A DNA stretch of 64,000 bases from Giardia intestinalis (GCA_000002435.2 CM018793.1), one strand, 5' to 3'. Shown: positions 7,291 through 64,000, numbered from the stretch's first letter. Translations and numbers: made by a program. The notes: generated by a model from the letters alone, not told the origin.

Positions 7291-7370
7291 CTATGACTGG
7301 GCGCGCTAATGGAGGTGGTCAGCAGTATAATTTTATTTAAATCCAATCTGAAGATTTTAAATTTGGAATT

Positions 7371-7892: not shown

Positions 7893-7912
7893 ATTGATCT
7901 TCAAACGAATAA

Positions 7913-8485: not shown

Positions 8486-8494
8486 CCTATTCGT

Positions 8495-37627: not shown

Positions 37628-37787
37628 TATTTATGTGTTTTTGACAGAGGCTCCGTCCTAACAAATCCCTGCCAGCTATGGTGAAATGATACCCGCGCAG
37701 CGGCCGCCCATGGGACTACAACCCCAAGGACTACAACGCTGGCAGGCAACAGGGGCCCGCACGCAAAACGCAGAGTTCACTAGCGGC

Positions 37788-40700: not shown

Positions 40701-42671
40701 GAGCTCCTTGAGCTCTGCGATCTGGTTATCGCGCGCCTCGATCTCATCGGTCAGCGCCCTGATCTTCTCCTCGAGGGCGCGGATGGCCGTCTCGTCTGCG
40801 GGGGCGTCGCGCGACCTACCGCTGAGCTCCTTGACCTGCTGCTGGAGCTCCTCGATGCGCGCAAGGTACTCTGCAGCGTCTGCTCCCCGCGTGGCGTCTG
40901 CCTCCAGGGCGTCCACCCTTTCCTGGAGAGCCGCGCTGTTCTTCATCTCCTCCTGGATGCGGTCGCGGAGGAGCTCGATCTCGTCGTCGCGCTCGTCGAT
41001 GTCCTGCTTCGCGTTGGCGAGCTCGAACTGGAGGTCTGCGATCTGCTCGTTGAGCTCCTTGACCCTCTCGTCGTCGCCGCCCTGCGCGTCGGCGAGGAGC
41101 CTCTCCAGCCCTGCGATCTGCGCCTCGAGCTGGGCTACGCGTTTATCGCCCTCGGCAGACGACCTCTGGGCGCTCTCTGCGCGCATGACGAGGTCCTGGA
41201 GGCGGGCGATCTCCGAGTTCTTGGCGGCGATGATGGCGTCGAAGTCCGCCGCCTCGCCTCCCCTGGCCAGGGTCTCCTCGAGGCGGCTCTGGAGGGCCTC
41301 GAGCTCCCCGTCCTTGGCGAGGAGGGCCTGGCGGAGGCTCTCGACCTCCTCCTCGAGAATCTGCGTGGCGTACGCCTCGTCCTGGCTGGCGGCTGCCTGT
41401 TCCAGCTCGGCAATGCGTGCGTCGCGCTCATCGAGCATGGACCGGAGGCCTGCGAGTTCGTCCTCGAAGGCCCTGGTCTTCTCGACGATGGGCCGGAGCC
41501 CCGAGAGGTCGGACTCGCGCGCCTCCAGCTCCTCCCGGAGGGCGCTGATCTTGTTTTCGTAGTCTGCAAGAAGGGCCGCGTCTCCCGTGGGCGACGGGAC
41601 GGCGGTCAGGCGCTCGTTGAGGGCGCGGATGTCCCTCTCCTTCTCCGCGAGCTCGGACTGGAGCGCCCTGATCTTGTCCTTGAGGCCGTCGACGTCCTCG
41701 CCAGACCCGCCGGCGCTGAGCATTCCCTCCATGTCGGAGAGACGCTCCTTGAGGTCGCTGATGATGGCGTCCTTGTCGGCCGTCTCGGACTGGAGCCTGC
41801 TGATCTCGATGCGCAGCGTGGTGATGTTCTCCTCCATGTTCTTGACCTGGCCGTGCAGGGAAACGTTCTGGCCGATGACGATCGACGACTCGTCGTGCAG
41901 CGAGGCCAGCTTCAGCTCGAGCTGCATGATCTTGGACTCGAGCTCGTGCTCGAGCTGCGTCTTGGTCTGCGTGAGGGAGTCAGCCTGTCCGCCGGGGAAG
42001 CGGTGCGCGTCGATCAGAGAGAATGACAGGGAGAGGTCGAGGGCGGGGTTTCCGACCTGGGACGAGGAGAAGTTCATGAGCGAGGGGCGGGTGAACTCCG
42101 GAATCAGGTTCGCCTCATAGGACGCGAGGCACTGGACGATGTCGGTGTGCCCGTTCTCGGCCGCGAGCACGAACGCCGTCTTGTGGTCGTACGAGACGAT
42201 CTCCTTCTCGCGGACCACGAGGAGCTTCACCACGTCCGTGTGGCCGGCCGCCGCCGCGTACATCAGGGCGGTGCGCCCGCGCGCGTCTGTCTTGGCCTTG
42301 AGGTAGGGGAGCAGGTTGCTGACCGCCGCGGTCGACCCGTGCTCGGCGGCGAGCATGAGAGGCGTCATCTGGAAGTCGCCGTAGGTGGTGTTGACCTCAT
42401 AGGCGACGAGGCGCTTGCAGACGTCGCCCTTGTTGGCCTCGGCGGCGATCATGATGGCGGTCTTCCCCTCGCCGTTGACCATGCCGTTCTCGAAGAAGCC
42501 GAGGATCTTGACAAGCTCCACGTTCCCTTCGCGCGCGGCGATCATCAGGCCCGTCTCGCCGTCGCCGTTGACGGACTTGGCGTACTCTGCTGCGTGGTTG
42601 CGGATCAGCTCGACCTGGCCGGCCTGGATGGCCTCAAACCATTCCTCCACAGAAGACACCACTGCAGGCAT
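37788..42671 (-). CDS. Ankyrin-repeat plus giant coiled-coil protein; GASP-180-like axoneme-associated protein family (inference)
   Basis: N-terminal ~200 aa contain 5-6 ankyrin repeats, followed by ~1400 aa of continuous heptad coiled coil. 1627 aa is about 180 kDa. The gene is markedly GC3-rich (~65% GC versus ~48% in neighbours). ATG at 42671. Confidence 0.7.
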   Translation of the reverse strand: MPAVVSSVEEWFEAIQAGQVELIRNHAAEYAKSVNGDGETGLMIAAREGNVELVKILGFFENGMVNGEGKTAIMIAAEANKGDVCKRLVAYEVNTTYGDFQMTPLMLAAEHGSTAAVSNLLPYLKAKTDARGRTALMYAAAAGHTDVVKLLVVREKEIVSYDHKTAFVLAAENGHTDIVQCLASYEANLIPEFTRPSLMNFSSSQVGNPALDLSLSFSLIDAHRFPGGQADSLTQTKTQLEHELESKIMQLELKLASLHDESSIVIGQNVSLHGQVKNMEENITTLRIEISRLQSETADKDAIISDLKERLSDMEGMLSAGGSGEDVDGLKDKIRALQSELAEKERDIRALNERLTAVPSPTGDAALLADYENKISALREELEARESDLSGLRPIVEKTRAFEDELAGLRSMLDERDARIAELEQAAASQDEAYATQILEEEVESLRQALLAKDGELEALQSRLEETLARGGEAADFDAIIAAKNSEIARLQDLVMRAESAQRSSAEGDKRVAQLEAQIAGLERLLADAQGGDDERVKELNEQIADLQFELANAKQDIDERDDEIELLRDRIQEEMKNSAALQERVDALEADATRGADAAEYLARIEELQQQVKELSGRSRDAPADETAIRALEEKIRALTDEIEARDNQIAELKELVDGAPAQPVETDPAQLTALEEENGRLKDELQALNDALEALRKSGADEASGLRGQVAHLNKEVSDLKEALANARASGDASDVERLVELQEQLEDAQEQLLSLKDRYDCAVAEMEDMRRELEQKPVGSTVYTDEPGASSEDLDRLKEELDALREEVQVLNEELEVMHGQNREQKDELNRLNGALDAKESLIADLKAQLDSTVPQDDARIKILEDEIADLRGTVAARDDAIRGLEEKTARLAELEQLAADKGKEVADKEHSLRRLEDEVRQLNDALCELREKPLSVAPSDQSGAEYVDAQTEISDVDPEEQAKVSSILDFDDGLVQKVDELQALVNALTGENDHYKGEHARIMAEMDALKEDLRNGRLRSDSLEGDKERLMKQVRDLTDLVESLRKDLGAPQDQGEVAALRQEVADLRSRVDELIDAAKGKDETIEQLEKELAIARASAENTERLSELLAEVEGYKAKLGESKEMVDSLLAQLASKDAELAGATTGLRAVTDDDGAELAKARVASLENEVAELRGQLNAKLAEIDAVHKNLVDSDAEAARLREELGGLRVQLEAAQVPEDTERVRMLEDQLQDARKELAELRAALEAKEMETEGLRAELATADPELANKLEASEATVRELRESAEALQDKLHALSDSRAADGDLQKLVEQLEKDLSGAKELVAERDATIDELKQRLRDTEEYDDLKERIAELDDEIAVLNDGLKDKDAEIAELREQLEAQPTATTVYPESGEEVGDAAALREVQDENAALKDELEAKRSLIDELQDEIDGLKQQCSDLKDEMIKLDSANNDKITTLQCSLDESRKQIADLQEEVEVLKNTANDIDPAVVESLQEELRKLQEELDDRENTITELQGLLDDQEGKNAEVSAQIEALNRELEEARDANLHSANDERTMALEAEIASLQESLDKANEDLAQKTDECGKAISETGNLRKAVEYYKKLVDDIRAGIVVLDDNLSALDLQ

Positions 42672-48890: not shown

Positions 48891-50927
48891 ATGCATGCGT
48901 TGGTGGTGCTCGTCGCTCTGGCCACCGCGCCGTCGCGTGGAGGGAAGATGAGCTGCCCCAAAAACCACTACCTGACCGGGAGCATGTGCGTTGAGTGCGC
49001 CACGGCGATAAAGTGGTGTCTGGAGTGCACCGGGGCAGGCGCGTGCACGAGGTGCGCTTCCGGGGCGTATCTCGAGGGAGGGTACTGCAAGCCGTGCGAC
49101 CCTACCTGTGAGCGCTGCACAGGCCCGGGGAAGTGCACGGCGTGCAGCGAGGCCCACTGCAGGGCACAGGACGGGACGTGCAAGAAGCCCAAGGACTTAT
49201 ATACAGGATGTAGCAAGTGCGTCCATGACACAGGAAAGTGCATGACCTGCGCAGAGGGGTACTTCCACTCGGGCGCGGGATCAACCCCCTGCACAAAGTG
49301 TGCCGATAACTGTCTATCCTGCAAGAGCCCCACTGAGTGCACGAGGGCTGCCTCAGGGTACTATGTTAACCCCTCGACGAAGAGTCCAGCTGCCTGTACC
49401 AGTGCTAACTGTGACACTTGCGCAGATGGCGGAGCATGCACTGTCTGCAAGCCAGGTTATAGGCTTTCTACGTCATCAACAACGACATCATCGGCAACAT
49501 GTGTAAGTTGTACTGGCAATTGCAGCACGTGCGATTCCAACAAATGCACCTTCTGCATGCCCGGCTATGCCCTCACTTCTGACAGTACCTGCCAGGCGTG
49601 TCAGCAAGGCTGCGCTATCTGCGCCGATGATGAGCACCAGTTTCCTGGCAAATGTCTCTCCACTGGCTGCGCACAAGGCTACTATTACCATTCGTACGCA
49701 AAGGTGTGTGCCAAGTGTCCAACCAATTGTGCCGACTGCTACTACGACGAGGTGCACAGCATTCCTGTTTGTACCCGGTGTACGGACTCGTCCCAACTCA
49801 CGGTAGGACCAAAGATATATGGCATTTGGTGCTCTGATCTACCGACCAAAAGTTGTAAGAGTAACGAGTTTTTAGAAAACGGCTTTTGCGTCCCCTGCTA
49901 CGGGGCCATTATGAACTGTATAGGATGCAGCGACCGCTTCCGCTGCACTGAATGCTTGCCTGGCTACTACTTGTACGACAACCTCTGTGTCCGGTGCGAC
50001 GACAACTGCCTTGCTTGTGAGAACACTGCGACAAACTGCACCAATTGCGATGATGGCTTTGTCCTGCAGAATGGCACATGCGTTAAAGTGGGCTTGGTGA
50101 TAGAGAACTGTCTCCACGCGGATAATACCACAGATCCAACCAAAGGCTGCAGCACGTGTCGGGGCGGCTTTTACGTAGCTGACGGTGCGTGCAAGAAGTG
50201 TGTGGATAACTGTCAGTTATGCAAGGGACCGGAGGTTTCGAACTGCATACTAGGATTCAATGGCTATCGGTATGATAGCTACAAGAATACGTTGGAAAAG
50301 TGTGAGGATCCCAACTGTGAGCTGTGCGCAGAAACAGCAAAGTATTGCGGCACTTGCAAACTAGGATTTTACATATCACCTGACGATCAGAAGTGTGCGA
50401 AAGGACAAGTAGAGAATTGCAAGGTCTATACATATGACGGCTCTGCATGCAGCGAGTGCCTAGCCGGCTATGGCATTTCAGTTGATGGAGATCGGTGCTC
50501 CCCGTGCTTGGAAGGCTGCAAGGGAGAGTGCACAGACACTACTTGTGAGTCTGGCGTGTGTGTGCAGGGATACTATTTCGCTGAAGGGGATACGTGTCTA
50601 ACGTGTCCGAGCGAATGTGCGTCCTGTATGGCAAACAGCAAGAAGCTGGTCTCTTGCGATCGGTGCACGTCTGGCCAGGTTTTCGCCATTAGCTCAGTCA
50701 TGGGTCTCTACTGCGGTAAGCTGGACTCTAACTTCTCCAGCAGGGGCGCAGGACTCATCTCTACGATTGTTATCTTGGGCCTCATCATCGTCGGTTTCAT
50801 CGTGGCTACTCCGTTCCTCGTCAAGCTTGCGAAGAAGCGGGGGGTCCGAGTTAGCAAATTACGCAGCATAAATTCCGGGTCAGAGAGCCACAACGAGTTC
50901 CTTCTAGAGGAGCCGGATCTTCTGTGA
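48891..50927 (+). CDS. High cysteine membrane protein (HCMP), type I membrane protein
   Basis: Signal peptide, about 12% Cys arranged as repeated CxxC/CxC units, one C-terminal TM helix (LISTIVILGLIIVGFIVATPFLV), and a short cytoplasmic tail that does not end in CRGKA. ATG at 48891; the track start is TTG. Confidence 0.8.
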   Translation: MHALVVLVALATAPSRGGKMSCPKNHYLTGSMCVECATAIKWCLECTGAGACTRCASGAYLEGGYCKPCDPTCERCTGPGKCTACSEAHCRAQDGTCKKPKDLYTGCSKCVHDTGKCMTCAEGYFHSGAGSTPCTKCADNCLSCKSPTECTRAASGYYVNPSTKSPAACTSANCDTCADGGACTVCKPGYRLSTSSTTTSSATCVSCTGNCSTCDSNKCTFCMPGYALTSDSTCQACQQGCAICADDEHQFPGKCLSTGCAQGYYYHSYAKVCAKCPTNCADCYYDEVHSIPVCTRCTDSSQLTVGPKIYGIWCSDLPTKSCKSNEFLENGFCVPCYGAIMNCIGCSDRFRCTECLPGYYLYDNLCVRCDDNCLACENTATNCTNCDDGFVLQNGTCVKVGLVIENCLHADNTTDPTKGCSTCRGGFYVADGACKKCVDNCQLCKGPEVSNCILGFNGYRYDSYKNTLEKCEDPNCELCAETAKYCGTCKLGFYISPDDQKCAKGQVENCKVYTYDGSACSECLAGYGISVDGDRCSPCLEGCKGECTDTTCESGVCVQGYYFAEGDTCLTCPSECASCMANSKKLVSCDRCTSGQVFAISSVMGLYCGKLDSNFSSRGAGLISTIVILGLIIVGFIVATPFLVKLAKKRGVRVSKLRSINSGSESHNEFLLEEPDLL

Positions 50928-53900
50928 CGGCGCGGATCAATGTCTTCTCCTGTCTGCCTTGCTTGTATGCGTACCCAGTTTCTATCGTGCTGGGGCAATA
51001 CAGCCCTTCTCCTAGTAAACAAGGCAGAAGTATGTATGCTGGTGTCACCACGGTCGTTGACTACCTAGGGGCCGGCGACAGCTGCGAGAGCAATGGGCAC
51101 AGGAGTAGCGCATTCCGGGGCGTGATTTATCTGTCTTGCCATCTGCCGTGGTACTGTACATGACTCCGAGGATGATACAGTGTTGATCGCTGAGGTGGTT
51201 TCCAGCAAATACGTCCTTAGTTAACTTCCTCGTATCGGGCGGCGCTTCGCATGCCTGGTTCCGACGTCCGGCGCCACCCAGCTCCGGGAGCAGGAGAAGG
51301 CGGGGAAGGAGGTCGGTAGCCCGACCCTCTCACCTGCAGCAGCCTCCGGATCCGCATGCCGATAGAAACGACTCGAAGCGGGATCCGGCAGACACTTGGC
51401 GGGATGATGGTACTGCAGGCGAAGAGGGCCCTCGCGCTCGCCGCCCCAGTCGATCTCCCTACTAAAGAGCAAGCGTGTGGCGGACTTCTAAGACGGTTGC
51501 CGCTATCACTGAACCCTCTCCCCAGCTGGGCTAGTCGTCAAATGGGAAGTGGCTCATGAACGCATTATCTCGCCTTTTGAGGCCCGCCTTGCCTCTATTG
51601 TATTGTCCATGGCGCCAGGAGTTATGGAAGACACGCCTGCACCTCCTGACTGAAGAGCTTTGCCGCGGGCAAGGCACCGAACGCCGCGTCCTGGGAAGCC
51701 TCCCGCCTCAGGCTCATTCAACTGGAGTCTCATACGCCAAATAAGGCATTTCATTTCCCTTTCCACACCTCCATAGCTTACAGGCTGTGTTACATCATGC
51801 TGCACCAGATGACGCCTACGCCAACATCCCCAGGACGCTGAGAGAGATCAGAAGGCCTTCCAAGTCCTCTGGAGGCGTTTAGATGCAACTCCTAGCTCTT
51901 GCTCTTGGGAGACCTCGATAGGGATCAGCAATCGACACGTAGACTGCGAGCTATGTAATCAAGACCTGGAACAGATGGCCTTCGTTATCGACAAGACAAG
52001 AACAGGTGATGGAGCTCCGTTCTCCCCGGATCCTGTGCTCCAGAGGAGGCAGGGCTTCCAGTCACTGACTGCCCCGATAGGAGTCATGCGTCTGCTGATG
52101 CTTTGTGAGGACCGCATGGACTCCGACTCGTACCTATACACTGTGGATGCTGCTGGTCTCTCGAGGGAGATGCTCCGACACCATAGCAAGAACAGGAGCC
52201 TTAGGTGCACATGTGAGAGCTTGACACGGGACATAGAGCTAATTCAGGCCTCATTTAAGAACCTGGGGGCGTTTCACACGCTGGAGGATACCAGGATTGG
52301 GGGAGTCCCCATCATCTGTTGCCCCAAATGCTTCAGCACCAGAATGGCGAGTAGGAGACATCTGGCTAAAACGAAACACTCTGTGCTGATGTGGCACCAG
52401 ATGGTAGTCACTCGAGCATATGCTCGTTCTGCACTGAACCCACCGAGGTCAGAGAGCCGTCCAGGTGCACTGCAACACAAACATCGAGTGTAGAGCGTAA
52501 CTGCGTGAAGGGATGGGAATGAAGAGGAGAGGGACATCCTTTTCAGCACCCACCCCATAGCCATGCTCAGGGATGATAAAGACCCTTCTTATAGAACCCC
52601 AGTCAAAAGAGGCGAGAGCACCTCGTGAAGCAAATGAGGTGTGCTTTGTCAGACTGGTGGGTCGTTGATATATGAGCAACAGCCACCAGAAGGCCTCTAA
52701 CAGGGATCAGATTGTCAAGTGCGTCGAAGACGCCTTGATGAAGAACAACTGCCCTCGGGTCACGGGCTTCTCTCCTACAAGAACATTCACAACCTGGACT
52801 CTCTAGAGGGGATAAAGGTAACACGTGAGCTGCACTCTAATACCCCAAAGTGTTACCGTGGCTGGACGACAGGAGATTGTGCTGGTCACGTGGTGAGAAT
52901 CTTCATGCGAACTTCCAGCCAGATCAGACAATAGTGAGAAATAGCTAGTTTTCTCGTAGCGTGCCTCCTCTCTGAACAGGACTGGAGGTGCCTGGGATGC
53001 TCTTCTAGAGTCTCGGTATCGAAGGGTCCATGCCAAGTAGCAGACCCTGTACTGCATGGCATGAGAGCTTTTAGGACGTGTAAATACCCGTGTGGCCGTA
53101 GCGACGCGTTTCCATCCGCAGGTACCAGGGCACGTCGGTGGACAGCGTACACAGTGACTCAGGCACTCTACGTGTGGTCATGTCCTACAGTTCCTGTAGT
53201 GGGCTATGGACAGCCTGATAACCAGTGTTCTATAGCAGCGCGACGTGGGATGGTGCGCCCAGCAGCACACCACATCTATGGTCTCAACGAGGCTTTACAG
53301 GGTGCAGTAGGGCATCCGAGCCAACTGAGCATTGGACTGGGCCCTGGGTGGGAGGTAAGGGCTCCTGTGCACGACTGGGTTGCTCCCAGATAGAATAGGG
53401 TATACAGTGAGCTAGATGAATGCGATGCTGTAAGGTATCCACAGCCGCATAGATTCATCCGGTGGTGCCGCACTGGATGTTGGGAGGCACACTGCCGACA
53501 GGTCAGGGAAGCTTAAAGAGTGATAGTGCCATTTTGCTATTATTATGTAGTACTTCGGGGCATGTAGCTAGGGAGGTATCCCCTGATGGTTGGGAAAAGG
53601 GCAGAGCTAAGTGAATAATGACCATGCCCATCATGAACAGCTCTAGATGCTACCCGATCACTTTCTAGAAGTGCATATGTCTCGGATAGGTGGGAGCTAC
53701 ATTCAGGGCCATGTGCGGATAGAAGGCAGCCCAGCGACTGACGCTTTGTACAACCTCCTCATCCGCTGCCTGAGCAGCCAGAAGCCAGCTTCGATATGCA
53801 GACGGAAGCTGCGAAGAGTAAACTCATCGTGGGGTCGATTGTCTGACACTAAAAAATCCGGAACGATGACGGCAGCCATTGTCTCCCTAAGATGATGTAT

Positions 53901-56900
53901 TATGCGCGGTATCAGCTTTGGCCCTCTAGATGGGTAGTTTGGGGCATTCTGCACTAGCCTTGACTTCTGAGACGCTAAGACCTGTGAATAGCACAGAACG
54001 AGGCATGGTATGTATAGACGGTGCGTTGTCTTCATGAATGTGCACTACAGCCTCCAAATGCACGCAGCTAGACCAGAATGGACGGATCAGCTAGCTTACA
54101 CAGGCGACCTGCCCACCACCATGTTTGCTGCGATGAGGGGCTGCATCTACCCAACAGACTGAGCAGAGATTACAGCAGCTTCTCTACTGATGCATGCATG
54201 GCCATGCGCCGCCCTAGTAGGTGGTGTAGATACTATAGTATCTACCCTGCCTGTTGTTAATAAAGAATATCAGTTAGTCGCACTGGACACTCTTCTAGGA
54301 AGGCATACAGTCTCTATGGTTGCAATTTCACCAGTTGTAATGACAACTGAACACTAGGAAAGGTGCCATAGAACGATCTGCTGCCTTTCAAGGTGAGACA
54401 TAAATCCACACATAAGCCAAAAGCAGAACTCTATACATCGATTGTTATGATCTTAGTGCGATGACCGGTTTGAGCTATGATACACTCCTCACTTATCTAT
54501 GTACTCGTTTGGATCCTCGCTGCTAGTGTTGGACAGGACTGCGAGGGGGCCTGTCTCTGGTTGCGTTGACCTTATGGTATCTAGTCCTTGGTGACACACC
54601 TCAGCGGATGAGGATGTTATTCGGGTACTCAAAAGACTATCCGTGCATAACGGTTTCTGGAGAGCCGGTCCGCATGGAGAATATAGGGTGACCAGCGAAT
54701 CAGTGAAGTAAGACTGGCGTCAGAGAGGCCAGCTACTAGCCCGGATTGCAGCAGAGACGCCTGTAGCGCCTCTCTGGTCTCCGAGTGGTAAAGATCGCGG
54801 GGTCTACAGATAAGTTGAAAGCTGCTTTTTGATTTTATATATTCCTAACAGCGTAATATTTATCAGCGGCCTGCCTCGTCTGAAGTTGAAGAAGTTTACC
54901 TTCTCTCCGCATATTGGCGAGGATCTATTGTAGAGGCATGCTGTGCAGGCTGGTACCAGTCGGCGTGGTTGCTGTCCACAGATTTCTCACCTGCGTCTTC
55001 TCATGGCAGATGATCGCTAGCAGCGCTCTCAGCTCACGTGGCTAAGTCTACGGTGCATCTCCACTTCGGCCAAGGATTGTATACGTATTATATAGTCTGG
55101 ATTGCTCATCAGCCAGGATAGTGTGGTCCACTCCTGTTCTCTGCTTGCCTATCTCGTGCAACCATTTATTAATGACCTTTCCAGATCAATGGGTACTTCC
55201 ATCAGTTCTGTAAAGGCATACGTCACGCAGACGGCCACTACAAGCCAGACTCCTGTCTACCAAGGAAAAGGGTCAATAGATTTATCATCTGGGCATCCGT
55301 TATGTCCCTTATACAGATCTGGCAGGTCTTGGGCTCCTCAGCGTTTCTTCGTAAGTCTCTGGCTGAAGCCCGTATGCATATCGTTACTGACAAGCGCCTT
55401 AGCTTCATCTGACCACTTAGGGCATTAGATCCTTTGCCCTGCACAGTGGGTATGCTCAGCGTGGGAGGTACACAACCAGCATCAGCTTTCTCGGCTCATT
55501 GTCTGAGTAATACTGTCATTGCTTCTCAATTTAACTAGCAACTCAACTAATGGTCTCAAAAGCAGATAACAACTCACCAGCAGGTAGTCAGCAGTGACCG
55601 TGACGCGTACTTTCGCTAAGGCGCAGACTTCTAAGCAGGAGCATGAGGTAGGCCTCTGCCATTCTGTGGTCCTGTTAATTCCTCGGATAGTAAAGATTGG
55701 AACAGCTCAGGCTAGCATTGGATGCATCCGGGTCTCTATCTATCTCCGTCGTCTGGAGTGTGTTTGACTTCATAAACTGAAAGGAGCTGTACCGTGCTCG
55801 TGCCTGCAAGCCTCAGCTAGGCAGAGCTATATCTCAGTTGTTGCGTGGGGGTAGCCACACGCCCCGCAGAGCCTGCAAGGAACATTGTGGCCCAATAGAG
55901 CCTTTTACCTATCGAATGCAAGCTGTGACCTCATAGGCGCAGGCTTTCTTATAGTAACCAGTCAGCTACAGAGTTCGTCCACTCGTATAAACCCAACGGA
56001 TGGAGGGCGATATCAGTCTCGTCGATCGTCTACAACGCACAGCAGTCGAGTCCTACAGGTGGACAGAGGTCATCCAGCCCGCATCAATAAACATCGATAG
56101 GAAGCCTTCACAACAATGAATGAGTGAGTACAGTAGCCATTTTTCTATTGAAGATTCTCCAACCACTGAGGTCCAGGACAGCCTCCTACAGGATTCTTGG
56201 CAGGATCGTATCCGATGCATGTTTGTGGCACTCCCGCTCAAGGTGTGTGTTGCTAGACTTTCACTTCCTACACTGGCCTGTGAACATTGAGCTCTGGGCT
56301 CTAGCGGGGCCATGCTGGAGATCACAAGGATATGGTGTCTTCGGAGACTATTCGGCTTCCGTAGCCACACAATAAGGATCTACTTCTCGCAGTAGCATCA
56401 CAGAGAGGTGTATAGAACCATACCACGCCCTCTACCAGGTGACATGATGCATGAATCAAGAGGTAGGACGCTTGCACCGATCGGCATATCTACCATGATC
56501 AGACACAGATTGGCCCGAAAGTAGCAGCTAAATGTTGTTCGACTCCCTTATCAGTGGATGGGCACCCAACTACCCTGGTACCCACACGAGGCCACGCTGA
56601 GTATGGGCCTGGTCACTGGCTATCAAACCAGCACAGTCCCTCTGGATCTCGTCTCTCATGAAGACAGCCTAACACAGAGAGCTCTGTGTCACTCACATCA
56701 ACAGACCAAGGTACCGCAGGCCTGGGTGCTTCTGGTACGATAGAGCGGTAGCATCAGAGTAATTCAAGGGGTGATGGGAGTCCTCTCCATCAGCTCAGGA
56801 GACAGCACGGTCTGGGCAGTGCTTCCCCTTGACTAGACACGGGAGGGCTGACCCGTCTCTGAGTTCTACTTGCCACTCTGTCATGCAATGAAGAACCCTA

Positions 56901-57137
56901 ATGGTACTTAGTACAGGGGGCCAGTAGTAACGCCATGCATCCACCAGATCAGAGTGCCCCATGAGCCTGTCTCTGTTGATCCACACCTTCTACGAACTTT
57001 AGTGACTGATGCAATCTTCTCTCGAGATCCTCCGAGGATTTGTCTCTGAGTGTAACTCCCCCACGACAGCTAAGGGTCACGGGCATAACCGAAGGACGAG
57101 AGCGATCCAGGGGGAGAGCACCGGCGCATGGGGTCCG

Positions 57138-59720
57138 CAGGGGCCGGTTCCCAGGGATGCAAGGACGGCAGATCGCTTGCTGTCTAAGCAGTAATTAGAT
57201 CCATGTTTTGTCATGACGGCAAGGTTGGCACCGGATCAAGTTCTTTGGATCTTTAACACAATATCTGACAAATGCATTGTTCTATTGGCTGAACATAGGA
57301 TTGCTGACAAAATTTTGTTTCCGCATTGGCATAACCCGAACAGAACTTCAATGTTGTTGGTAGTATTCTATCTTGTGTTGAGTGCTCTCGCGGCAGCATG
57401 CAAGCAAGCACAAAATTGTGTAGAGGATAAGTGCGAAATGATCGGAGACACCGAAATTTGCACTCAGTGCACAGCAGGAAAAGTCCCAATTGATGGAGTA
57501 TGTACAGCAGTTGGTAGTGCCGCTGGTAAATGTACAAAGGCTGAAGGACAAGCAGTAGATGACACTGATAAAACATGTGGAAAATGCGTAGACGCATACT
57601 TCATGTACAAAGGCGGATGTTATCTGGCCGGTGCAGCTGGACCGGGTACTGGTACTAAAATGTGCAAGCAGGCTGCTGGTGGCAAGTGTACGCAAGCTGC
57701 TGATGCGAAGAACTACTTCATTCCACCAGCAAATACAGACGATACTCATGATTCTGTCGTTTGGTGCGGTGATGAAATAGGCGTAACACTTAGTAGTACT
57801 CAGTATAAGGGTGTTGCTAAGTGCCTAGTATGTGATGCTCCCGGTGGCGCTGGTGCTGCAACGTGCACAACCTGTGAAGACGGGTACTTTGGTGCTACTT
57901 GTGAAAAATGCCATGAAAGTTGTAGGACATGTGAAGCTGCAGAAGAGAATAAGTGCAAGTCGTGTACAGATGGCTACTTCCTTGGAGCAACCAATGGAGC
58001 CGCAGGTAAGTGCCTTAAATGTAACTCTAAAACAGAGGAAGGCTGGCACGGAGTTGACAACTGTGCTAAGTGCACGTCATCTAATACGCAAAACACTCCT
58101 GCGACATGCACTGAATGCGTTGCAAATTTCTATCTAAAACCAGCTGCGGATGCGACTCCTTCTAGTTGCGTCACAGAAACGGGGTGCGGTGACGGATACT
58201 TCCCAACTATTGTTGATGAGGTCAAGAAATGTATCGCTTGCAGTGCAGCTACAAATGGTGGCATAGATGACTGCAAAAAGTGTTCTCTCAAAACAACGTC
58301 TGCGAAGGCAGGAGTAGAGATCGTATGCACTGAATGTAATACTAAATGGCTCAGTCCTCTAAGAGACGCATGTTTGGATAGCTGTCCTCCTGGAACACAT
58401 GCTGATTCTGGCAATATTTGTCCTTTATGTCATAGTACATGTGCAGAATGTGATGGTAATGCAGGAGCCAACTTTTGTACAGTTTGTTATCCAGGGTTTG
58501 TATTAAAGCGCGGTGAAACTGGCAACATGGGCATGTGCGTTCCCGAGTGCACTGGAGAGTACGCAGAGAACTGCGAAGCTGACCAATGCACGGCCGTTAT
58601 AGGTAGCTCCAAGTATTGCAGCAGGTGTAAGGTTGGATTTGCCCCAGTGGATGGCGTCTGTGTATCGACGGCTTCAAGAGCAGTAACTGGATGCACAGCA
58701 GGAAACGATGGGACATGTACGGCCTGCACAGGTACATATTTCTTACAATCTGGTGGGTGCTATCAGTCAACAACGTATCCTGGTAATACCCTCTGCTCTA
58801 TCGCTGCTAGTGGAAAGTGCACAACATGCGCCAATGGGCAAACAGCAGATAGCAATTTGGGTTCTTGCCCAGCATGTCCAGCTGGCTGCTCAAAGTGCGC
58901 AACTAGTGGTAGTCCCAAAGCATGCTCAGAGTGTTTCCCTGGATACTATAAATCTGGGGATAGCTGCGCAAGATGCGATACTAATAACAGCCAAATTACC
59001 GGTGTCGCTAATTGCGTAAGCTGTGCTCCTCCATCTAATGGTCAAGGATCTGTCATCTGCTACATAACGCGACAAGAGACCGACGATGGCACTGGCGACA
59101 ACACAGGTGGAAGCACGAACAAGAGCGGCCTCTCCACGGGTGCCATCGCGGGGATCTCCGTGGCTGTGATTGTTGTTGTAGGTGGCCTCGTCGGCTTCCT
59201 CTGCTGGTGGTTTATCTGCCGTGGAAAGGCGTAGACTTAGGTAGTAAACACGTCACTGTATATGGCTTATTACGCTATTCTGCCGGGGCTATCTGAGGAT
59301 CGCCCAGAGATCGTGTGAGTGAGTCCGCTCCTTTCTGACTAGTCCGGAGACGAGGGTTGGTCATGAATAACATGACGGAGAGTCCTCTCCAGTGATATAT
59401 CCAGAGCCTGGTGCGCTCCTCTGCCATTTCGCGGGGGTGTACTCAATCCGAGTGTGTGCGTCACTCACCCTGGGATTCAGCTTACCTATCCATTTGCATC
59501 GTCCACCAGTGGCGCCTCTCGTTGGTCTTCCTTCGTGGTGGGTGAAGCTCCGGTCGCCGTCCTTTTTTAGATGCCCCGTCTGTCAGGGGCTGCCACCGGG
59601 CTCTCCGCTGGCTGGGCCCTCGGTGTCCGGGCAGCTGTGGCTCGAGTCAGCGCTCCCACAGTCCAGTCACCTGTGTCTCAGTGGGCCGGCTGGTGGGTGG
59701 GGCGGGGGTATGGGGCGGTG
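57138..59720. repeat. Left arm of a >=2583-bp perfect inverted repeat (carries VSP copy 1)
   Basis: Reverse complement of 61418..64000. The arm may extend further left because the right arm is cut by the window end. Confidence 0.85.
57351..59234 (+). CDS. vsp: Variant-specific surface protein (VSP), copy 1
   Basis: Signal peptide MLLVVFYLVLSALAA, many CxxC motifs, a GGCY-type motif, a C-terminal TM and the invariant CRGKA terminus. The upstream in-frame ATG at 57213 adds 46 non-signal residues and is probably 5' leader. Confidence 0.85.
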   Translation: MLLVVFYLVLSALAAACKQAQNCVEDKCEMIGDTEICTQCTAGKVPIDGVCTAVGSAAGKCTKAEGQAVDDTDKTCGKCVDAYFMYKGGCYLAGAAGPGTGTKMCKQAAGGKCTQAADAKNYFIPPANTDDTHDSVVWCGDEIGVTLSSTQYKGVAKCLVCDAPGGAGAATCTTCEDGYFGATCEKCHESCRTCEAAEENKCKSCTDGYFLGATNGAAGKCLKCNSKTEEGWHGVDNCAKCTSSNTQNTPATCTECVANFYLKPAADATPSSCVTETGCGDGYFPTIVDEVKKCIACSAATNGGIDDCKKCSLKTTSAKAGVEIVCTECNTKWLSPLRDACLDSCPPGTHADSGNICPLCHSTCAECDGNAGANFCTVCYPGFVLKRGETGNMGMCVPECTGEYAENCEADQCTAVIGSSKYCSRCKVGFAPVDGVCVSTASRAVTGCTAGNDGTCTACTGTYFLQSGGCYQSTTYPGNTLCSIAASGKCTTCANGQTADSNLGSCPACPAGCSKCATSGSPKACSECFPGYYKSGDSCARCDTNNSQITGVANCVSCAPPSNGQGSVICYITRQETDDGTGDNTGGSTNKSGLSTGAIAGISVAVIVVVGGLVGFLCWWFICRGKA

Positions 59721-61417
59721 AGGCTGGAGGGGACTGGTGGGACCAGGTGGTGGGTGTTCGTATGCGCCCCTGACCTTTTAGTGGACTGGGGTGATCCCCG
59801 CTCTGTTTGCCAAGGTGGTTGTGTCTGATCTTCAACCATCGTTGCACTCCCGAGACAGAGGCACCGACGATCGTGTCGTGTCCCCCTGAGTGAGCGCCTC
59901 CCTTGGCCCCTGCATGCCTCGGGCAGTACTGCTCTGTCTGGCTGGTGCATGAGGGCTGAGGCAGACCATCGCAGCCTCTCCTGTTGCTCGCTGATGCTCT
60001 GTGACGGGTCTGCTGGGCCCCTGGCATGCCCTGTCCGGTGCCTCGACGATAGTTCACCTCGGGCCAGCAGGGGTGTGGATGACCTTGTGAATGGGATGGG
60101 GTTCTCTCATGCCTCTAGTGTGATGACTCAAAAGACTAACACGGTGGGGCATCGGTGACTGCACTGTCCCCGTGGTCAGCTGTGCTGCTCCTGGTGGGTC
60201 CTTGTTGTGGAGCGCTGTGTATCATCCATAGGCAGAGGTGAGCCTCCTTGGTCTCAGGATGCTCTACCATCAGAGAGGAGCACGCTGGGGGTCACCCAAC
60301 ATCACCTGCTGTGCCCTCGGGAGTTCCCGGTGTGGTCTACTAACCTTAACACCTCTCGTGGCTCTGATGACCCCTCGGGGAGAGCCGGGGTGTCCTATGC
60401 CAGGGAGGCGTGCACCTTCCTGCATGAGCTGGGCCATCCACTGCACTGCCCCCAAGGAGGTCTGCTATGAGAGGCAGTGGGATGATTGACAGCCCCTCAG
60501 AGTGGGTGGAGGGCGCTCGTGGTCGTCTCTGTGACCGGGCATCACTCTGATAGTCGGCTCTGTGCCTGCGTGGTGCTCAGAGGTCACCTGTCTGCCTCAT
60601 TGCCTGCTGGACAGCCGGCCTCTTGTGTCATCCGAAGGCCTCCTCACTCCTCTGGCTGCTGCCCCCTCGGGTCATCGATGGAGACCAGCGGAGTCTTCGG
60701 TGGGTCTGGTGCCTGTCTGGGTGTCATGGGGGCTGGCAGCTATCAGGGCTCTGCCACTGCTCACCTGCCTGGAGTGTGCCTCCCTTGGGTCTGCTGTGCT
60801 GTAGTGTTTGAGTCCTCTGGTTTCCTATCAGGCCCTGGTTGTGAGGGTGACCCCACCTGGCCCTCTGATGTCCCTGTGGATGAGCATAGCAGCTGTCTGG
60901 CTGGGGATCTCTGGTGCCCGTGGCTGTTGCTGCCTCTCGGGTGCTCGGGTGGTTGCCTGGCACTCTCGTATGGGACACAGTCAGCGTGTCCCGAGCAGAC
61001 CCTAGTCCTCTCTGGGTCATGCACAGTCTGTCCGTGTGTGGATGGTCCTCCTGCACTCAGGTCCATCTGTGCATACTATCACTCAGCCTCGAGAGCAGGC
61101 CAGTGCCAGTTACTAGGGCTGCTGTCAGAGGGAGTCGTCTGCCACTACCATCGCTCGAGCAGCCCTGCAGATCAGGCTGGTTGCTGTGCACCCTCATGGC
61201 AGGGCTGCCTGACTCCCTTGGTCATCCTCTCTGTCCCGGTGTGCACGGCTCCTGAGGGTTGCCTGGGTGGAGGCACTCACAGACCACGAGCACACAGAGG
61301 GATGAGTCACAGGTAGACAGCCCCCAGTCACCACAGCTGCGATCACCCCAGTTCACCGGACCCAGGGGCACATACGAGCACCACCAACCTCAGCCCCCAC
61401 CAGAGCCCCTCCAGTCC
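59721..61417. other. 1.7-kb spacer between the IR arms: a degenerate continuation of the palindrome with a strand-compositional switch
   Basis: The left half is A-poor (G/T/C-rich) on the plus strand and the right half is T-poor (C/A-rich). The spacer edges are still ~80% identical to each other in reverse complement. Spurious long ORFs arise here because stop codons are rare. Confidence 0.6.
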
Positions 61418-64000
61418 CACCGCCCCATACCCCCGCCCCACCCACCAGCCGGCCCACTGAGACACAGGTGACTGGACTGTGGGAGCGCTGACTCGAGCCA
61501 CAGCTGCCCGGACACCGAGGGCCCAGCCAGCGGAGAGCCCGGTGGCAGCCCCTGACAGACGGGGCATCTAAAAAAGGACGGCGACCGGAGCTTCACCCAC
61601 CACGAAGGAAGACCAACGAGAGGCGCCACTGGTGGACGATGCAAATGGATAGGTAAGCTGAATCCCAGGGTGAGTGACGCACACACTCGGATTGAGTACA
61701 CCCCCGCGAAATGGCAGAGGAGCGCACCAGGCTCTGGATATATCACTGGAGAGGACTCTCCGTCATGTTATTCATGACCAACCCTCGTCTCCGGACTAGT
61801 CAGAAAGGAGCGGACTCACTCACACGATCTCTGGGCGATCCTCAGATAGCCCCGGCAGAATAGCGTAATAAGCCATATACAGTGACGTGTTTACTACCTA
61901 AGTCTACGCCTTTCCACGGCAGATAAACCACCAGCAGAGGAAGCCGACGAGGCCACCTACAACAACAATCACAGCCACGGAGATCCCCGCGATGGCACCC
62001 GTGGAGAGGCCGCTCTTGTTCGTGCTTCCACCTGTGTTGTCGCCAGTGCCATCGTCGGTCTCTTGTCGCGTTATGTAGCAGATGACAGATCCTTGACCAT
62101 TAGATGGAGGAGCACAGCTTACGCAATTAGCGACACCGGTAATTTGGCTGTTATTAGTATCGCATCTTGCGCAGCTATCCCCAGATTTATAGTATCCAGG
62201 GAAACACTCTGAGCATGCTTTGGGACTACCACTAGTTGCGCACTTTGAGCAGCCAGCTGGACATGCTGGGCAAGAACCCAAATTGCTATCTGCTGTTTGC
62301 CCATTGGCGCATGTTGTGCACTTTCCACTAGCAGCGATAGAGCAGAGGGTATTACCAGGATACGTTGTTGACTGATAGCACCCACCAGATTGTAAGAAAT
62401 ATGTACCTGTGCAGGCCGTACATGTCCCATCGTTTCCTGCTGTGCATCCAGTTACTGCTCTTGAAGCCGTCGATACACAGACGCCATCCACTGGGGCAAA
62501 TCCAACCTTACACCTGCTGCAATACTTGGAGCTACCTATAACGGCCGTGCATTGGTCAGCTTCGCAGTTCTCTGCGTACTCTCCAGTGCACTCGGGAACG
62601 CACATGCCCATGTTGCCAGTTTCACCGCGCTTTAATACAAACCCTGGATAACAAACTGTACAAAAGTTGGCTCCTGCATTACCATCACATTCTGCACATG
62701 TACTATGACATAAAGGACAAATATTGCCAGAATCAGCATGTGTTCCAGGAGGACAGCTATCCAAACATGCGTCTCTTAGAGGACTGAGCCATTTAGTATT
62801 ACATTCAGTGCATACGATCTCTACTCCTGCCTTCGCAGACGTTGTTTTGAGAGAACACTTTTTGCAGTCATCTATGCCACCATTTGTAGCTGCACTGCAA
62901 GCGATACATTTCTTGACCTCATCAACAATAGTTGGGAAGTATCCGTCACCGCACCCCGTTTCTGTGACGCAACTAGAAGGAGTCGCATCCGCAGCTGGTT
63001 TTAGATAGAAATTTGCAACGCATTCAGTGCATGTCGCAGGAGTGTTTTGCGTATTAGATGACGTGCACTTAGCACAGTTGTCAACTCCGTGCCAGCCTTC
63101 CTCTGTTTTAGAGTTACATTTAAGGCACTTACCTGCGGCTCCATTGGTTGCTCCAAGGAAGTAGCCATCTGTACACGACTTGCACTTATTCTCTTCTGCA
63201 GCTTCACATGTCCTACAACTTTCATGGCATTTTTCACAAGTAGCACCAAAGTACCCGTCTTCACAGGTTGTGCACGTTGCAGCACCAGCGCCACCGGGAG
63301 CATCACATACTAGGCACTTAGCAACACCCTTATACTGAGTACTACTAAGTGTTACGCCTATTTCATCACCGCACCAAACGACAGAATCATGAGTATCGTC
63401 TGTATTTGCTGGTGGAATGAAGTAGTTCTTCGCATCAGCAGCTTGCGTACACTTGCCACCAGCAGCCTGCTTGCACATTTTAGTACCAGTACCCGGTCCA
63501 GCTGCACCGGCCAGATAACATCCGCCTTTGTACATGAAGTATGCGTCTACGCATTTTCCACATGTTTTATCAGTGTCATCTACTGCTTGTCCTTCAGCCT
63601 TTGTACATTTACCAGCGGCACTACCAACTGCTGTACATACTCCATCAATTGGGACTTTTCCTGCTGTGCACTGAGTGCAAATTTCGGTGTCTCCGATCAT
63701 TTCGCACTTATCCTCTACACAATTTTGTGCTTGCTTGCATGCTGCCGCGAGAGCACTCAACACAAGATAGAATACTACCAACAACATTGAAGTTCTGTTC
63801 GGGTTATGCCAATGCGGAAACAAAATTTTGTCAGCAATCCTATGTTCAGCCAATAGAACAATGCATTTGTCAGATATTGTGTTAAAGATCCAAAGAACTT
63901 GATCCGGTGCCAACCTTGCCGTCATGACAAAACATGGATCTAATTACTGCTTAGACAGCAAGCGATCTGCCGTCCTTGCATCCCTGGGAACCGGCCCCTG
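61418..64000. repeat. Right arm of the inverted repeat (carries VSP copy 2); truncated by the window end
   Basis: Reverse complement of 57138..59720. Identity ends at gtatggggcggtg / caccgccccatac. Confidence 0.85.
61904..63787 (-). CDS. vsp: Variant-specific surface protein (VSP), copy 2, identical inverted duplicate
   Basis: Exact reverse complement of copy 1, giving an identical 673-aa ORF translation. Tail-to-tail relative to copy 1. Confidence 0.85.
   Translation of the reverse strand: MLLVVFYLVLSALAAACKQAQNCVEDKCEMIGDTEICTQCTAGKVPIDGVCTAVGSAAGKCTKAEGQAVDDTDKTCGKCVDAYFMYKGGCYLAGAAGPGTGTKMCKQAAGGKCTQAADAKNYFIPPANTDDTHDSVVWCGDEIGVTLSSTQYKGVAKCLVCDAPGGAGAATCTTCEDGYFGATCEKCHESCRTCEAAEENKCKSCTDGYFLGATNGAAGKCLKCNSKTEEGWHGVDNCAKCTSSNTQNTPATCTECVANFYLKPAADATPSSCVTETGCGDGYFPTIVDEVKKCIACSAATNGGIDDCKKCSLKTTSAKAGVEIVCTECNTKWLSPLRDACLDSCPPGTHADSGNICPLCHSTCAECDGNAGANFCTVCYPGFVLKRGETGNMGMCVPECTGEYAENCEADQCTAVIGSSKYCSRCKVGFAPVDGVCVSTASRAVTGCTAGNDGTCTACTGTYFLQSGGCYQSTTYPGNTLCSIAASGKCTTCANGQTADSNLGSCPACPAGCSKCATSGSPKACSECFPGYYKSGDSCARCDTNNSQITGVANCVSCAPPSNGQGSVICYITRQETDDGTGDNTGGSTNKSGLSTGAIAGISVAVIVVVGGLVGFLCWWFICRGKA

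What the first reader, a model, noticed from the sequence alone, without database searches (positions are those of the whole stretch)
59721..61417. Strand-skewed, A-depleted spacer with a compositional switch at the palindrome centre
On the plus strand, about 59.7-60.6 kb is strikingly poor in A. The right part, about 60.9-61.4 kb, is C/A-rich and T-poor. This is what a diverged extension of the inverted repeat would look like, with the skew being the same on the VSP sense strand on both sides. Because all three stop codons contain A, the region produces long spurious ORFs such as 60486..61316 with low-complexity translations. The reason for about 1 kb of A-depleted sequence downstream of each VSP is unknown. 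Possibilities are a 3' element, a degenerated coding remnant, or structure-forming G/T-rich DNA.
Basis: seen in the sequence. Interest (0 to 1): 0.5.

Follow-up and report, generated by a model that had tools for sequence, protein, structure and literature searches.

The report
Loop between paired Giardia VSP genes
The interval is the non-coding central loop of an already published pair of identical, convergent surface-antigen (VSP) genes in Giardia intestinalis WB; its shortage of A is real but runs one way across the whole loop instead of switching at the centre, and it looks inherited rather than newly made.

Summary
The window is Giardia intestinalis WB chromosome 5. The finding covers the spacer of the published tail-to-tail VSP pair GL50803_00137714/0011470 (vsp53.1/53.2; 2,669 nt between ORFs, no gene between).

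A-depletion and high GC are confirmed: A 0.149 and GC 0.61, against 0.242 and 0.50 for the window. The claimed switch at the palindrome centre (60569) is not confirmed. Both halves of the spacer are equally A-poor. AT skew is negative in 19 of 20 100-nt bins from 59400 to 61299 and flips at about 61300, where the right arm begins.

Reverse-complement similarity continues only about 73 nt past the perfect arms, perhaps up to 130 nt. The remaining 1.4-1.5 kb is unique and one-directional. It shows no codon periodicity, no conserved frame, no Pfam or Rfam match and no excess folding.

The whole inter-VSP region of about 2.7 kb is a family, 84-93% identical next to unrelated VSP genes in assemblage-A genomes. 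Rodríguez-Walker et al. 2022 already noted this similarity. Substitutions among copies are strand-symmetric and AT-biased, so the skew is inherited, not being generated now.

Extra features not mentioned in the four papers I read: strong CpG and A/T-run avoidance, and arm identity ending at a hypervariable G-tract.

Verdict: ordinary, known locus, low interest.

The parts
57138..59732 (.). Left perfect arm of the palindrome. Its outer limit is set only by the window end.
   Evidence: 100% complementary to 61406-64000. 57138 pairs with 64000, so the true arm may be longer.
57351..59234 (+). VSP gene, 627 aa with CRGKA tail. One member of the pair GL50803_00137714/0011470 (vsp53).
   Evidence: Exact match to KAE8305191.1/KAE8305192.1 'VSP with INR'. 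Listed in Xu 2020 Table 2 and Adam 2010 Additional file 1.
59234..59253 (+). Extended VSP polyadenylation signal GACTTAGGTAGTAAACACGT. The AGTAAAC core lies at 59243-59249.
   Evidence: Sequence read. It is the only AGTRAA on the + strand between 57138 and 64000. Listed for this gene in table S6 of Rodríguez-Walker 2022.
59235..59732 (+). 3' flank carried inside the left arm. A-poor from about 59400 (A 0.147 overall).
   Evidence: It is 65-90% identical to the flanks of other family copies.
59690..59760 (+). G-rich tract with a G4 motif at 59695-59715. The perfect arm ends here, and it is the most length-variable part of the family.
   Evidence: G4 motif. Identity between copies falls to 0.44-0.77 with 30-40-nt indels. 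The arm boundary maps to the same place in WB, L008 and L001.
59733..59805 (.). Imperfect inner extension of the inverted repeat, left side. About 76-80% identical to the reverse complement of 61332-61405.
   Evidence: z 8.7.
59806..61331 (+). Unique, one-directional core of the loop. A 0.145, T 0.244, GC 0.61, CpG observed/expected 0.37, no A/T run longer than 4. Non-coding.
   Evidence: No self-similarity and no tandem repeats. No period-3 signal. No Pfam match and no Rfam match. Dinucleotide statistics. It is 85-96% identical to other copies.
60486..61316 (+). Spurious 276-aa ORF.
   Evidence: Listed. Its relatives are mutually frameshifted. Variable sites are spread evenly over codon positions.
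61332..61405 (.). Imperfect inner extension of the inverted repeat, right side. The AT skew flips just before it, at about 61300.
61394..61426 (-). C-run, the mirror image of the G-tract and G4 motif. Sits at the inner end of the right arm.
61406..64000 (.). Right perfect arm, running off the window end.
61889..61895 (-). AGTAAAC polyadenylation signal of the right VSP copy.
   Evidence: It is the mirror of 59243-59249.
61904..63787 (-). Second, identical VSP copy (627 aa).

Best explanation
The interval is the unique central loop, plus the inner arm edges, of a gene-conversion-homogenised palindrome. The palindrome is formed by two identical convergent VSP genes of Giardia intestinalis WB (vsp53.1/53.2).

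The loop and the roughly 0.5-kb VSP 3' flanks together make a non-coding cassette of about 2.7 kb. The same cassette occurs, in the same internal orientation, beside unrelated VSP genes elsewhere in assemblage-A genomes.

The A-poor, GC-rich composition is a property of one continuous, one-directional block (about 59.4-61.3 kb). This block lies downstream of the left VSP copy. The right arm carries an inverted copy of only the first ~0.5 kb of that block, so the skew flips at the right arm/loop junction and not at the geometric centre.

Inferred steps:
- The two arms are kept identical by arm-to-arm gene conversion.
- Conversion tracts stop at a hypervariable G-rich tract. The innermost ~75-130 nt of the old repeat are therefore left to diverge.
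- The loop itself is a passive spacer whose skew is inherited from its ancestral sequence. Present-day mutation is slowly eroding it rather than creating it.
For: Shown by tool results or papers:
- Identity of the locus: exact protein matches, Xu 2020 Table 2 '137714 / 11470, -> <-, 627 aa, 2669 bp, no genes between' and Adam 2010.
- One-directional skew.
- Reverse-complement similarity ends within about 73-130 nt of the perfect arms.
- Non-coding. Indels between copies are mostly 1-2 nt.
- Family membership: window 59076-61796 aligns to L001 at 84% in one piece. Window 59118-61942 aligns to L008 (isolate DH) at 85%. The adjacent VSP coding sequences are only about 64% identical at the DNA level in L002, and 40-65% identical at the protein level among the VSP hits.
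- Rodríguez-Walker 2022 table S4 places this pair in a cluster of pairs whose intergenic regions 'are very similar'.
- All copies share the A-poor core, A 0.13-0.16.
- The arm boundary falls at the same G-tract in WB, L008 and L001. Arm identity is 100% in WB, 99.8% in L008 and 87% in L001.
- Substitution spectrum among copies is strand-symmetric: A>G vs T>C p=0.73, G>A vs C>T p=1.0. It is AT-biased, with 112 S>W against 46 W>S changes, implying an equilibrium GC of about 0.40 against the actual 0.61. A gains (38) exceed A losses (19).
Against: - Gene conversion, and its stopping at the G-tract, is inferred from identity patterns and was not observed.
- The core is somewhat better conserved between copies (about 0.88-0.92) than the flanks (about 0.65-0.9). 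A purely passive spacer does not predict that.
- A/T runs and CpG are avoided far beyond what base composition gives: AA+TT z -8.7, CG z -10.9, longest A/T run 4.
- New S>W changes next to an existing A/T are slightly under-represented, 66% against 76.5% expected, p=0.014. This hints at constraint or context-dependent mutation.
- G>T (11) exceeds C>A (2), p=0.022 uncorrected, a small asymmetry in the direction of the skew.
- The ancestral source of the composition remains unidentified.
- Most family copies come from metagenome contigs. The other WB pairs could not be fetched.
Confidence: 0.6

Rival explanations
1. First reader's reading. The whole spacer is a diverged inward extension of the inverted repeat. 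Each half keeps the same skew on its own VSP sense strand, with the switch at the centre.
For: The repeat does continue imperfectly for about 73 nt at about 76-80% identity, with a marginal signal for the next 70 nt. A similar imperfect extension is visible in L008.
Against: Both halves are equally A-poor on the + strand. The skew flips at about 61300, not at 60569. Blocks deeper than about 140 nt show no reverse-complement similarity, z<2. Family copies align co-linearly across the whole core in one orientation.
Confidence: 0.03
2. The core is a long-decayed protein-coding remnant on the minus strand, where the sense strand would be T-poor as in GC-rich Giardia genes. This would resemble the NEK, ankyrin or zinc-finger pseudogenes reported between G. 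muris VSP pairs.
For: The real coiled-coil gene at 37788-42671 (-) gives a similar A-poor + strand. The G. muris paper reports pseudogenes between VSP pairs. Rodríguez-Walker 2022 say pseudogenes are frequent between tail-to-tail pairs.
Against: No period-3 signal anywhere in 59250-61800: chi-square below 11, against 25-48 in the VSP. No position-specific composition in any frame. No Pfam match in six frames at E<=10. Protein search found only frameshifted DNA-level relatives. CpG observed/expected is 0.37, against 0.7-1.1 in real genes. For this pair table S4 lists 'None' between the genes.
Confidence: 0.12
3. The cassette is a selected non-coding element. One version is a spacer kept free of promoters and polyadenylation signals, insulating the two convergent genes. 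Another is the loop of a read-through hairpin RNA (sense VSP, loop, antisense VSP) that feeds the RNAi pathway proposed for VSP silencing.
For: Giardia promoters and polyadenylation signals are A/T-rich (established knowledge). The core has no A/T run longer than 4, with 2 runs of W>=4 against 21 expected, and there is no AGTRAA on either strand across the whole inter-ORF region apart from each VSP's own signal. The core is the best-conserved part of the cassette. S>W changes that would create A/T pairs are under-represented. Alternative distal polyadenylation is reported for one VSP.
Against: Each VSP has a strong canonical signal 8-15 nt past its stop codon. The core folds no better than shuffled sequence. 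No expression or small-RNA evidence was found in the papers read. Higher conservation could come from exchange between loci. Only 0.16 and 0.52 AGTRAA sites are expected by composition on the + and - strands of the core anyway.
Confidence: 0.15
4. The cassette is, or was, a mobile or foldback-like unit with ~0.4-0.5-kb terminal inverted repeats. It lands next to VSP 3' ends and seeds inverted duplication of the neighbouring gene.
For: The cassette has its own inverted termini in every copy. Two 'solo' ends (L001 right, L006 left) are cut at nearly the same point, 108-115 nt from where a VSP stop would be, and abut a different shared sequence. The cassette is far more conserved than the adjacent VSP coding sequences. 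The inter-ORF distance in 12 WB pairs falls in a narrow range, 2526-2813 nt.
Against: No transposase or reverse transcriptase was found. No target-site duplication was examined. Copies are seen only beside VSP-type sequence. The solo ends come from metagenome contigs that may be chimeric. Shared descent plus VSP shuffling through the conserved VSP 3' end explains the same facts.
Confidence: 0.1
5. The skew is being produced now by strand-asymmetric mutation, coupled to transcription or to replication.
For: T>A on the + strand is the direction expected for the non-template strand of a rightward transcript (general knowledge from other eukaryotes). G>T exceeds C>A, 11 against 2.
Against: The dominant changes are strand-symmetric: A>G 0.081 vs T>C 0.071 and G>A 0.113 vs C>T 0.113 per site. 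GC skew is about 0. Two equally transcribed convergent genes would give a switch at the centre, and none is seen.
Confidence: 0.05

Closest known systems
Giardia WB tail-to-tail identical VSP pairs (Mowatt 1991 vsp1267; Adam et al. 2010 Table 5; Xu et al. 2020 Table 2; Rodríguez-Walker et al. 2022 table S4)
   Same: This is one of them: vsp53.1/53.2 = GL50803_0011470/00137714. It has 2,669-2,670 nt between the ORFs, flank identity ending about 490-500 nt past the stop codon, and no annotated gene between the copies. Its intergenic region is already flagged as 'very similar' to those of other pairs.
   Different: Nothing differs in kind. The four Giardia papers I read do not report the following details: the one-directional A-depletion, the CpG and A/T-run avoidance, the strand-symmetric AT-biased substitution pattern, and the shared arm boundary at a G-tract.
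Large palindromes with a unique spacer and arm-to-arm gene conversion (for example the human Y-chromosome ampliconic palindromes)
   Same: The arms are near-identical and carry a gene copy each, with a non-duplicated asymmetric spacer between them. Arm identity is much higher than the age of the structure suggests: WB arms are 100% identical, while the related palindrome at the closest-related VSP locus in isolate P15 has arms 89.8% identical.
   Different: This one is kilobase-scale, not 10 kb to Mb. The same spacer family is shared by many separate palindromes. Conversion is inferred here and was not measured.
Head-to-head VSP pairs of Giardia with retrotransposon relics between them (Xu 2020; Rodríguez-Walker 2022)
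   Same: They are also duplicated identical VSP genes separated by 2.5-6 kb of largely non-coding DNA.
   Different: Those spacers carry reverse-transcriptase remnants or a NEK gene. This core has no Pfam match in any frame.
G. muris VSP pairs (Xu et al. 2020, Microbial Genomics)
   Same: Identical VSP genes occur in head-to-head or tail-to-tail pairs with intervening DNA.
   Different: The G. muris spacers hold NEK, ankyrin or zinc-finger genes or pseudogenes. No such remnant is detectable here.

Membership tests
Giardia tail-to-tail identical VSP pair | Two identical VSP ORFs in convergent orientation | tested here: met
   57351-59234 (+) and 61904-63787 (-) lie inside arms that are 100% identical. 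Both accessions KAE8305191.1 and KAE8305192.1 carry the same sequence.
Giardia tail-to-tail identical VSP pair | About 2.4-3.2 kb between the ORFs, with flank identity ending abruptly 318-559 nt past the stop codon | tested here: met
   2669 nt between the ORFs. Perfect identity ends 498 nt past the stop. Adam 2010 Table 5 lists vsp53 as 486 / 2670.
Giardia tail-to-tail identical VSP pair | Intervening DNA is non-coding, and similar to that of other pairs | tested here: met
   No period-3 signal, Pfam match or conserved frame. 84-93% identity to cassettes next to other VSPs. Table S4 footnote.
Diverged inward extension of the inverted repeat | Reverse-complement similarity and mirrored base skew about the centre | tested here: not met
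   Similarity is limited to about 73-130 nt. The skew is not mirrored and flips at about 61300.
Protein-coding gene or recent pseudogene | Codon periodicity, a conserved reading frame, third-position excess of substitutions, or domain homology | tested here: not met
Known structured RNA family (Rfam) | Covariance-model match, or folding energy beyond that of shuffled sequence | tested here: not met
   No Rfam match at gathering score or at E<=1. Folding z-scores range from -1.77 to +0.18.
Non-LTR retrotransposon relic (GilM/GilT/GilD type, as found between head-to-head pairs) | Reverse-transcriptase or endonuclease homology | tested here: not met
   No Pfam match in six frames at E<=10. No DNA-level comparison with Gil elements was possible because no copy was available.
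TIR or foldback-type mobile element | Terminal inverted repeats | tested here: met
   Flanks of about 0.37-0.57 kb are inverted at both ends of the cassette in WB, L001 and L008.
TIR or foldback-type mobile element | Transposase, target-site duplications, insertion polymorphism | tested here: inconclusive
   No transposase domain was found. The solo ends share a breakpoint.
G-quadruplex or R-loop-forming tract | Clustered G-runs or strong GC skew on one strand | tested here: not met
   This holds for the core: GC skew is about 0, and the only G4 motifs lie at the arm ends, 59695-59715 and the mirror 61394-61426.

The most novel reading that the evidence does not exclude
The inter-VSP cassette is a functional module and not inert spacer DNA. 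It would be a GC-rich loop free of promoters and polyadenylation signals, with its own inverted termini. In this reading it both seeds and maintains inverted duplication of whichever VSP lies beside it. It would also let occasional read-through transcripts fold into long VSP hairpin RNAs, tying a subset of VSP genes to RNAi-based silencing.
Probability: 0.08. Interest if true: 0.6.

Novelty: already known. Interest (0 to 1): 0.22.

Why it matters
VSP genes drive antigenic variation in Giardia. The authors who catalogued the identical inverted pairs called them 'cryptic'.

The loop turns out to be a one-directional, non-coding cassette shared between different VSP pairs. Its composition is far from mutational equilibrium. 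Arm identity stops at the same G-tract in different pairs.

These facts give concrete handles on how the palindromes arose and are homogenised. They also identify a uniquely mappable sequence that can be checked for transcripts or small RNAs. None of this changes the annotation: there is no gene here and the locus is already described.

Tried and rejected
- **Coding.** Six-frame stop maps and position-specific composition, period-3 chi-square, Pfam on six frames at E<=10 and a codon-position test on family variation were all negative.
- **RNA.** Rfam at gathering score and at E<=1 gave nothing. Folding of both strands in two halves was no better than shuffles.
- **Internal repeats.** Tandem Repeats Finder found only a trivial 8-mer repeated twice. 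A low-stringency self-BLAST found nothing significant inside the core.
- **Other copies in the window.** None found.
- **Fetching other WB pairs.** Exact look-ups of the window VSP and of WB VSPs P0095 and P0170 returned 'not on record'. The WB chromosome assembly could therefore not be read outside the window.
- **JGI metagenome scans.** Two invariant oligos (22-mer and 20-mer) gave 0 hits.
- **Active CpG hypermutation.** The CpG transition rate is 0.15 against about 0.11 elsewhere, which is not convincing.
- **Flawed analyses.** A first multiple alignment that included non-homologous contig ends gave misleading flank conservation. It was replaced by pairwise profiles. A global 'left half vs reverse complement of right half' score with free end gaps was uninformative and is disregarded (first line).
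- **Closest P15 VSP locus.** It does not carry the cassette.

Full report
**Where this is.** Several window ORFs match Giardia intestinalis WB proteins exactly, from the 4,018,654-nt chromosome-5 contig of assembly AACB03. The two ORFs flanking the finding encode the same 627-aa VSP with a CRGKA tail. The accessions are KAE8305191.1 and KAE8305192.1. An older 673-aa model was called 'variant-specific surface protein S1'.

Xu et al. 2020 list this pair as '137714 / 11470, -> <-, 627 aa, 2669 bp', with no gene between the copies. Adam et al. 2010 call it vsp53.1/53.2, a tail-to-tail identical pair, and give 486 nt of shared 3' flank and 2670 nt between ORFs. Rodríguez-Walker et al. 2022 (table S4) list it with 'None' between the genes. 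They put it in a cluster of pairs whose intergenic regions 'are very similar'. The object is therefore published.

**The observation.**
- The repeat finder gives perfect arms 57138-59732 and 61406-64000, with 1673 nt between them. Position 57138 pairs with 64000, so the arm length of 2595 nt is only a lower bound.
- The spacer has A 0.149, C 0.302, G 0.311, T 0.238. The window has A 0.242 and GC 0.50.
- Only the coiled-coil gene at 37-41 kb is as A-poor over the same length.
- The A-depletion is therefore real and large.
- It does not switch at the centre. The left and right halves have A 0.149 and 0.148. AT skew is negative in 19 of 20 100-nt bins from 59400 to 61299 and flips at 61300.
- The A-poor block also begins inside the left arm, at about 59400.

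**Extent of the inverted repeat.** With gaps allowed, the repeat continues to 59805/61332. An alignment shows about 76-80% identity over those 73 nt and then decay. Working inward in 70-nt blocks, the scores against shuffles are z 8.7, then 2.0, then below 2. About 1.4-1.5 kb (59806-61331) is therefore unique. It has no direct or inverted self-similarity and no tandem repeats beyond a trivial 8-mer repeated twice.

**Not coding, not a known RNA.**
- No frame shows position-specific composition.
- Period-3 chi-square stays below 11 from 59250 to 61800, against 25-48 inside the VSP genes.
- Six-frame translations hit no Pfam family at E<=10.
- Rfam gives nothing at gathering score or at E<=1.
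- The 276-aa ORF owes its length to a stop probability of 0.027 per codon, against 0.046 for the window.
- Its database relatives are frameshifted against one another.
- Variable columns among family members fall evenly on codon positions, 50/66/55, p=0.31.
- Indels between copies are mostly 1-2 nt.
- Both strands fold no better than dinucleotide shuffles, with z from -1.77 to +0.18.

**A family.** Searching with the spurious ORF and with a flank ORF recovered metagenome contigs and one NCBI contig of isolate DH, assemblage A2.
- Window 59076-61796 aligns to L001 in one piece at 84%.
- Window 59118-61942 aligns to L008 (DH) at 85%. L008 has its own 99.8%-identical arms.
- L002 is the same locus as L008.
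- The neighbouring VSP coding sequences are unrelated beyond the family level: about 64% DNA identity in L002, and 40-65% protein identity among the VSP hits.
- The cassette of about 2.7 kb is thus shared by different VSP genes, always with the A-poor strand continuous with the 'left' VSP sense strand.
- Every copy has the A-poor core, A 0.13-0.16.
- Against WB, the core is 0.85-0.96 identical and the flanks 0.65-0.9. The G-rich and C-rich junction tracts are the worst, 0.44-0.77, with 30-40-nt length differences.
- The inner limit of high arm identity maps to the same place, WB 59706-59732 / 61406-61431, in WB, L008 and L001.
- L001 has the cassette with 87%-identical inverted flanks but no second VSP.
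- Its right end and the left end of L006 both stop 108-115 nt from where a VSP stop codon would lie, and both abut a shared different sequence. These are metagenome contigs, so I treat this as a lead only.

**Is the skew being made now?** I polarised singleton differences against the majority base in the core alignment.
- Transitions dominate and are strand-symmetric: A>G 0.081 vs T>C 0.071 per site (p=0.73), and G>A 0.113 vs C>T 0.113 (p=1.0). A five-copy subset agrees.
- Changes are AT-biased, 112 S>W against 46 W>S. This implies an equilibrium GC near 0.40, against the actual 0.61. In the five-copy subset, A gains (38) exceed A losses (19).
- The skew and the high GC are therefore inherited states that are being eroded, or are held by something other than mutation.
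- Two small departures exist: G>T 11 against C>A 2 (p=0.022, uncorrected), and fewer S>W changes next to an existing A/T than expected, 66% against 76.5%, p=0.014.
- Caveats: majority-rule polarisation, a star-like tree assumed, and few copies.

**Other compositional features.**
- The core has the lowest CpG observed/expected in the window, 0.37, with TG and CA at 1.57.
- AA, TT and TA are at 0.38, 0.35 and 0.46 of expectation.
- The longest A/T run is 4, against a shuffle mean of 7.3 (P=0.001).
- Runs of W>=4 number 2, against 21 expected. AA+TT has z -8.7 and CG has z -10.9.
- L001 shows the same pattern.
- CpG sites do not mutate convincingly faster now, 0.15 against 0.11.
- Apart from each VSP's own AGTAAAC just past its stop codon, there is no AGTRAA on either strand of the inter-ORF region. 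Composition alone predicts only 0.16 and 0.52 on the + and - strands of the core.

**Interpretation.** The compositional block is one continuous A-poor tail downstream of the left VSP copy. The right arm repeats only its first ~0.5 kb in inverted form, so the flip sits at the right junction. Three steps are inferred rather than shown:
1. Arm-to-arm gene conversion keeps the arms identical. WB arms are 100% identical, whereas the closest-related VSP locus in isolate P15 has a single VSP between 3-kb inverted arms only 89.8% identical.
2. Conversion stops at the indel-prone G-tract.
3. The loop is a passive spacer.

The better conservation of the core and the avoidance of A/T runs leave room for constraint. 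I give a functional reading 0.15 and a mobile or seeding reading 0.10. A remote coding origin (0.12) has no remaining trace. Ongoing asymmetric mutation (0.05) is contradicted by the spectrum. The mirrored-repeat reading is refuted except for the outer 75-130 nt on each side.

**Limits.**
- The WB assembly outside the window could not be read.
- Two JGI metagenome scans found nothing.
- No expression data were available. The four Giardia papers I read do not discuss the composition of these spacers.

**Verdict.** The locus and its family are already in the literature. The compositional details are modest additions.

Noticed in passing
window 37788-42671 (-): A 1627-aa ankyrin plus coiled-coil ORF makes a 5-kb tract with A about 0.10 and GC about 0.67 on the + strand. 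This is more extreme than the finding, and it spawns many long spurious overlapping ORFs (for example 37686-39623 + and 39663-42026 +). The exact protein sequence from this start codon is not in the protein collection.
   Followed up: partly
L005 (G. intestinalis P15, ACVC01000129.1) 4833-12934: At the locus of the closest P15 VSP (65% aa identity) a single VSP sits between 3-kb inverted arms that are 89.8% identical, and there is no cassette. Part of these arms (L005 4677-5401) matches window 54114-54836 at 65% identity. The WB palindrome may therefore extend well beyond the window end, and P15 looks like the WB layout minus 'cassette plus second VSP'.
   Followed up: partly
L001 2866-2978 and L006 1245-1353: Two cassette ends lack an adjoining VSP. 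Both are cut at nearly the same point (WB 61796 / 59349, 108-115 nt from a VSP stop) and are preceded by a shared AGTAAA-type sequence. This hints at a discrete unit boundary. Both contigs come from metagenome assemblies.
   Followed up: partly
window 59806-61331: CpG observed/expected is 0.37, the lowest in the window, with TG and CA at 1.57 despite 61% GC. No current CpG hypermutability is visible among the copies. The cause is unknown.
   Followed up: partly
window 59690-59760 and 61380-61430: A G-tract with a G4 motif, and its C-rich mirror, mark the exact end of perfect arm identity. They are the most length-variable part of the family. The same boundary holds in two other cassettes.
   Followed up: yes
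window 50927-57213: There is about 6 kb upstream of the left VSP without any ORF of 200 aa or more. It is moderately GC-rich, with CpG 0.63 and AA/TT about 0.75-0.78 of expectation, a milder version of the core's signature. This fits the published remark that VSP surroundings are gene-poor.
   Followed up: no
window 28651-29000: A short stretch with A 0.38 and T 0.13-0.14 lies inside the ORF 28352-29245 (+). It is the only strongly T-poor, A-rich spot in the window outside the palindrome.
   Followed up: no
window 57213-57350 and 63788-63925: The VSP ORF can be read from an upstream ATG (673 aa, the older GenBank and 2010 model) or from the signal-peptide ATG (627 aa, the current annotation). 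Both versions are in the databases.
   Followed up: yes
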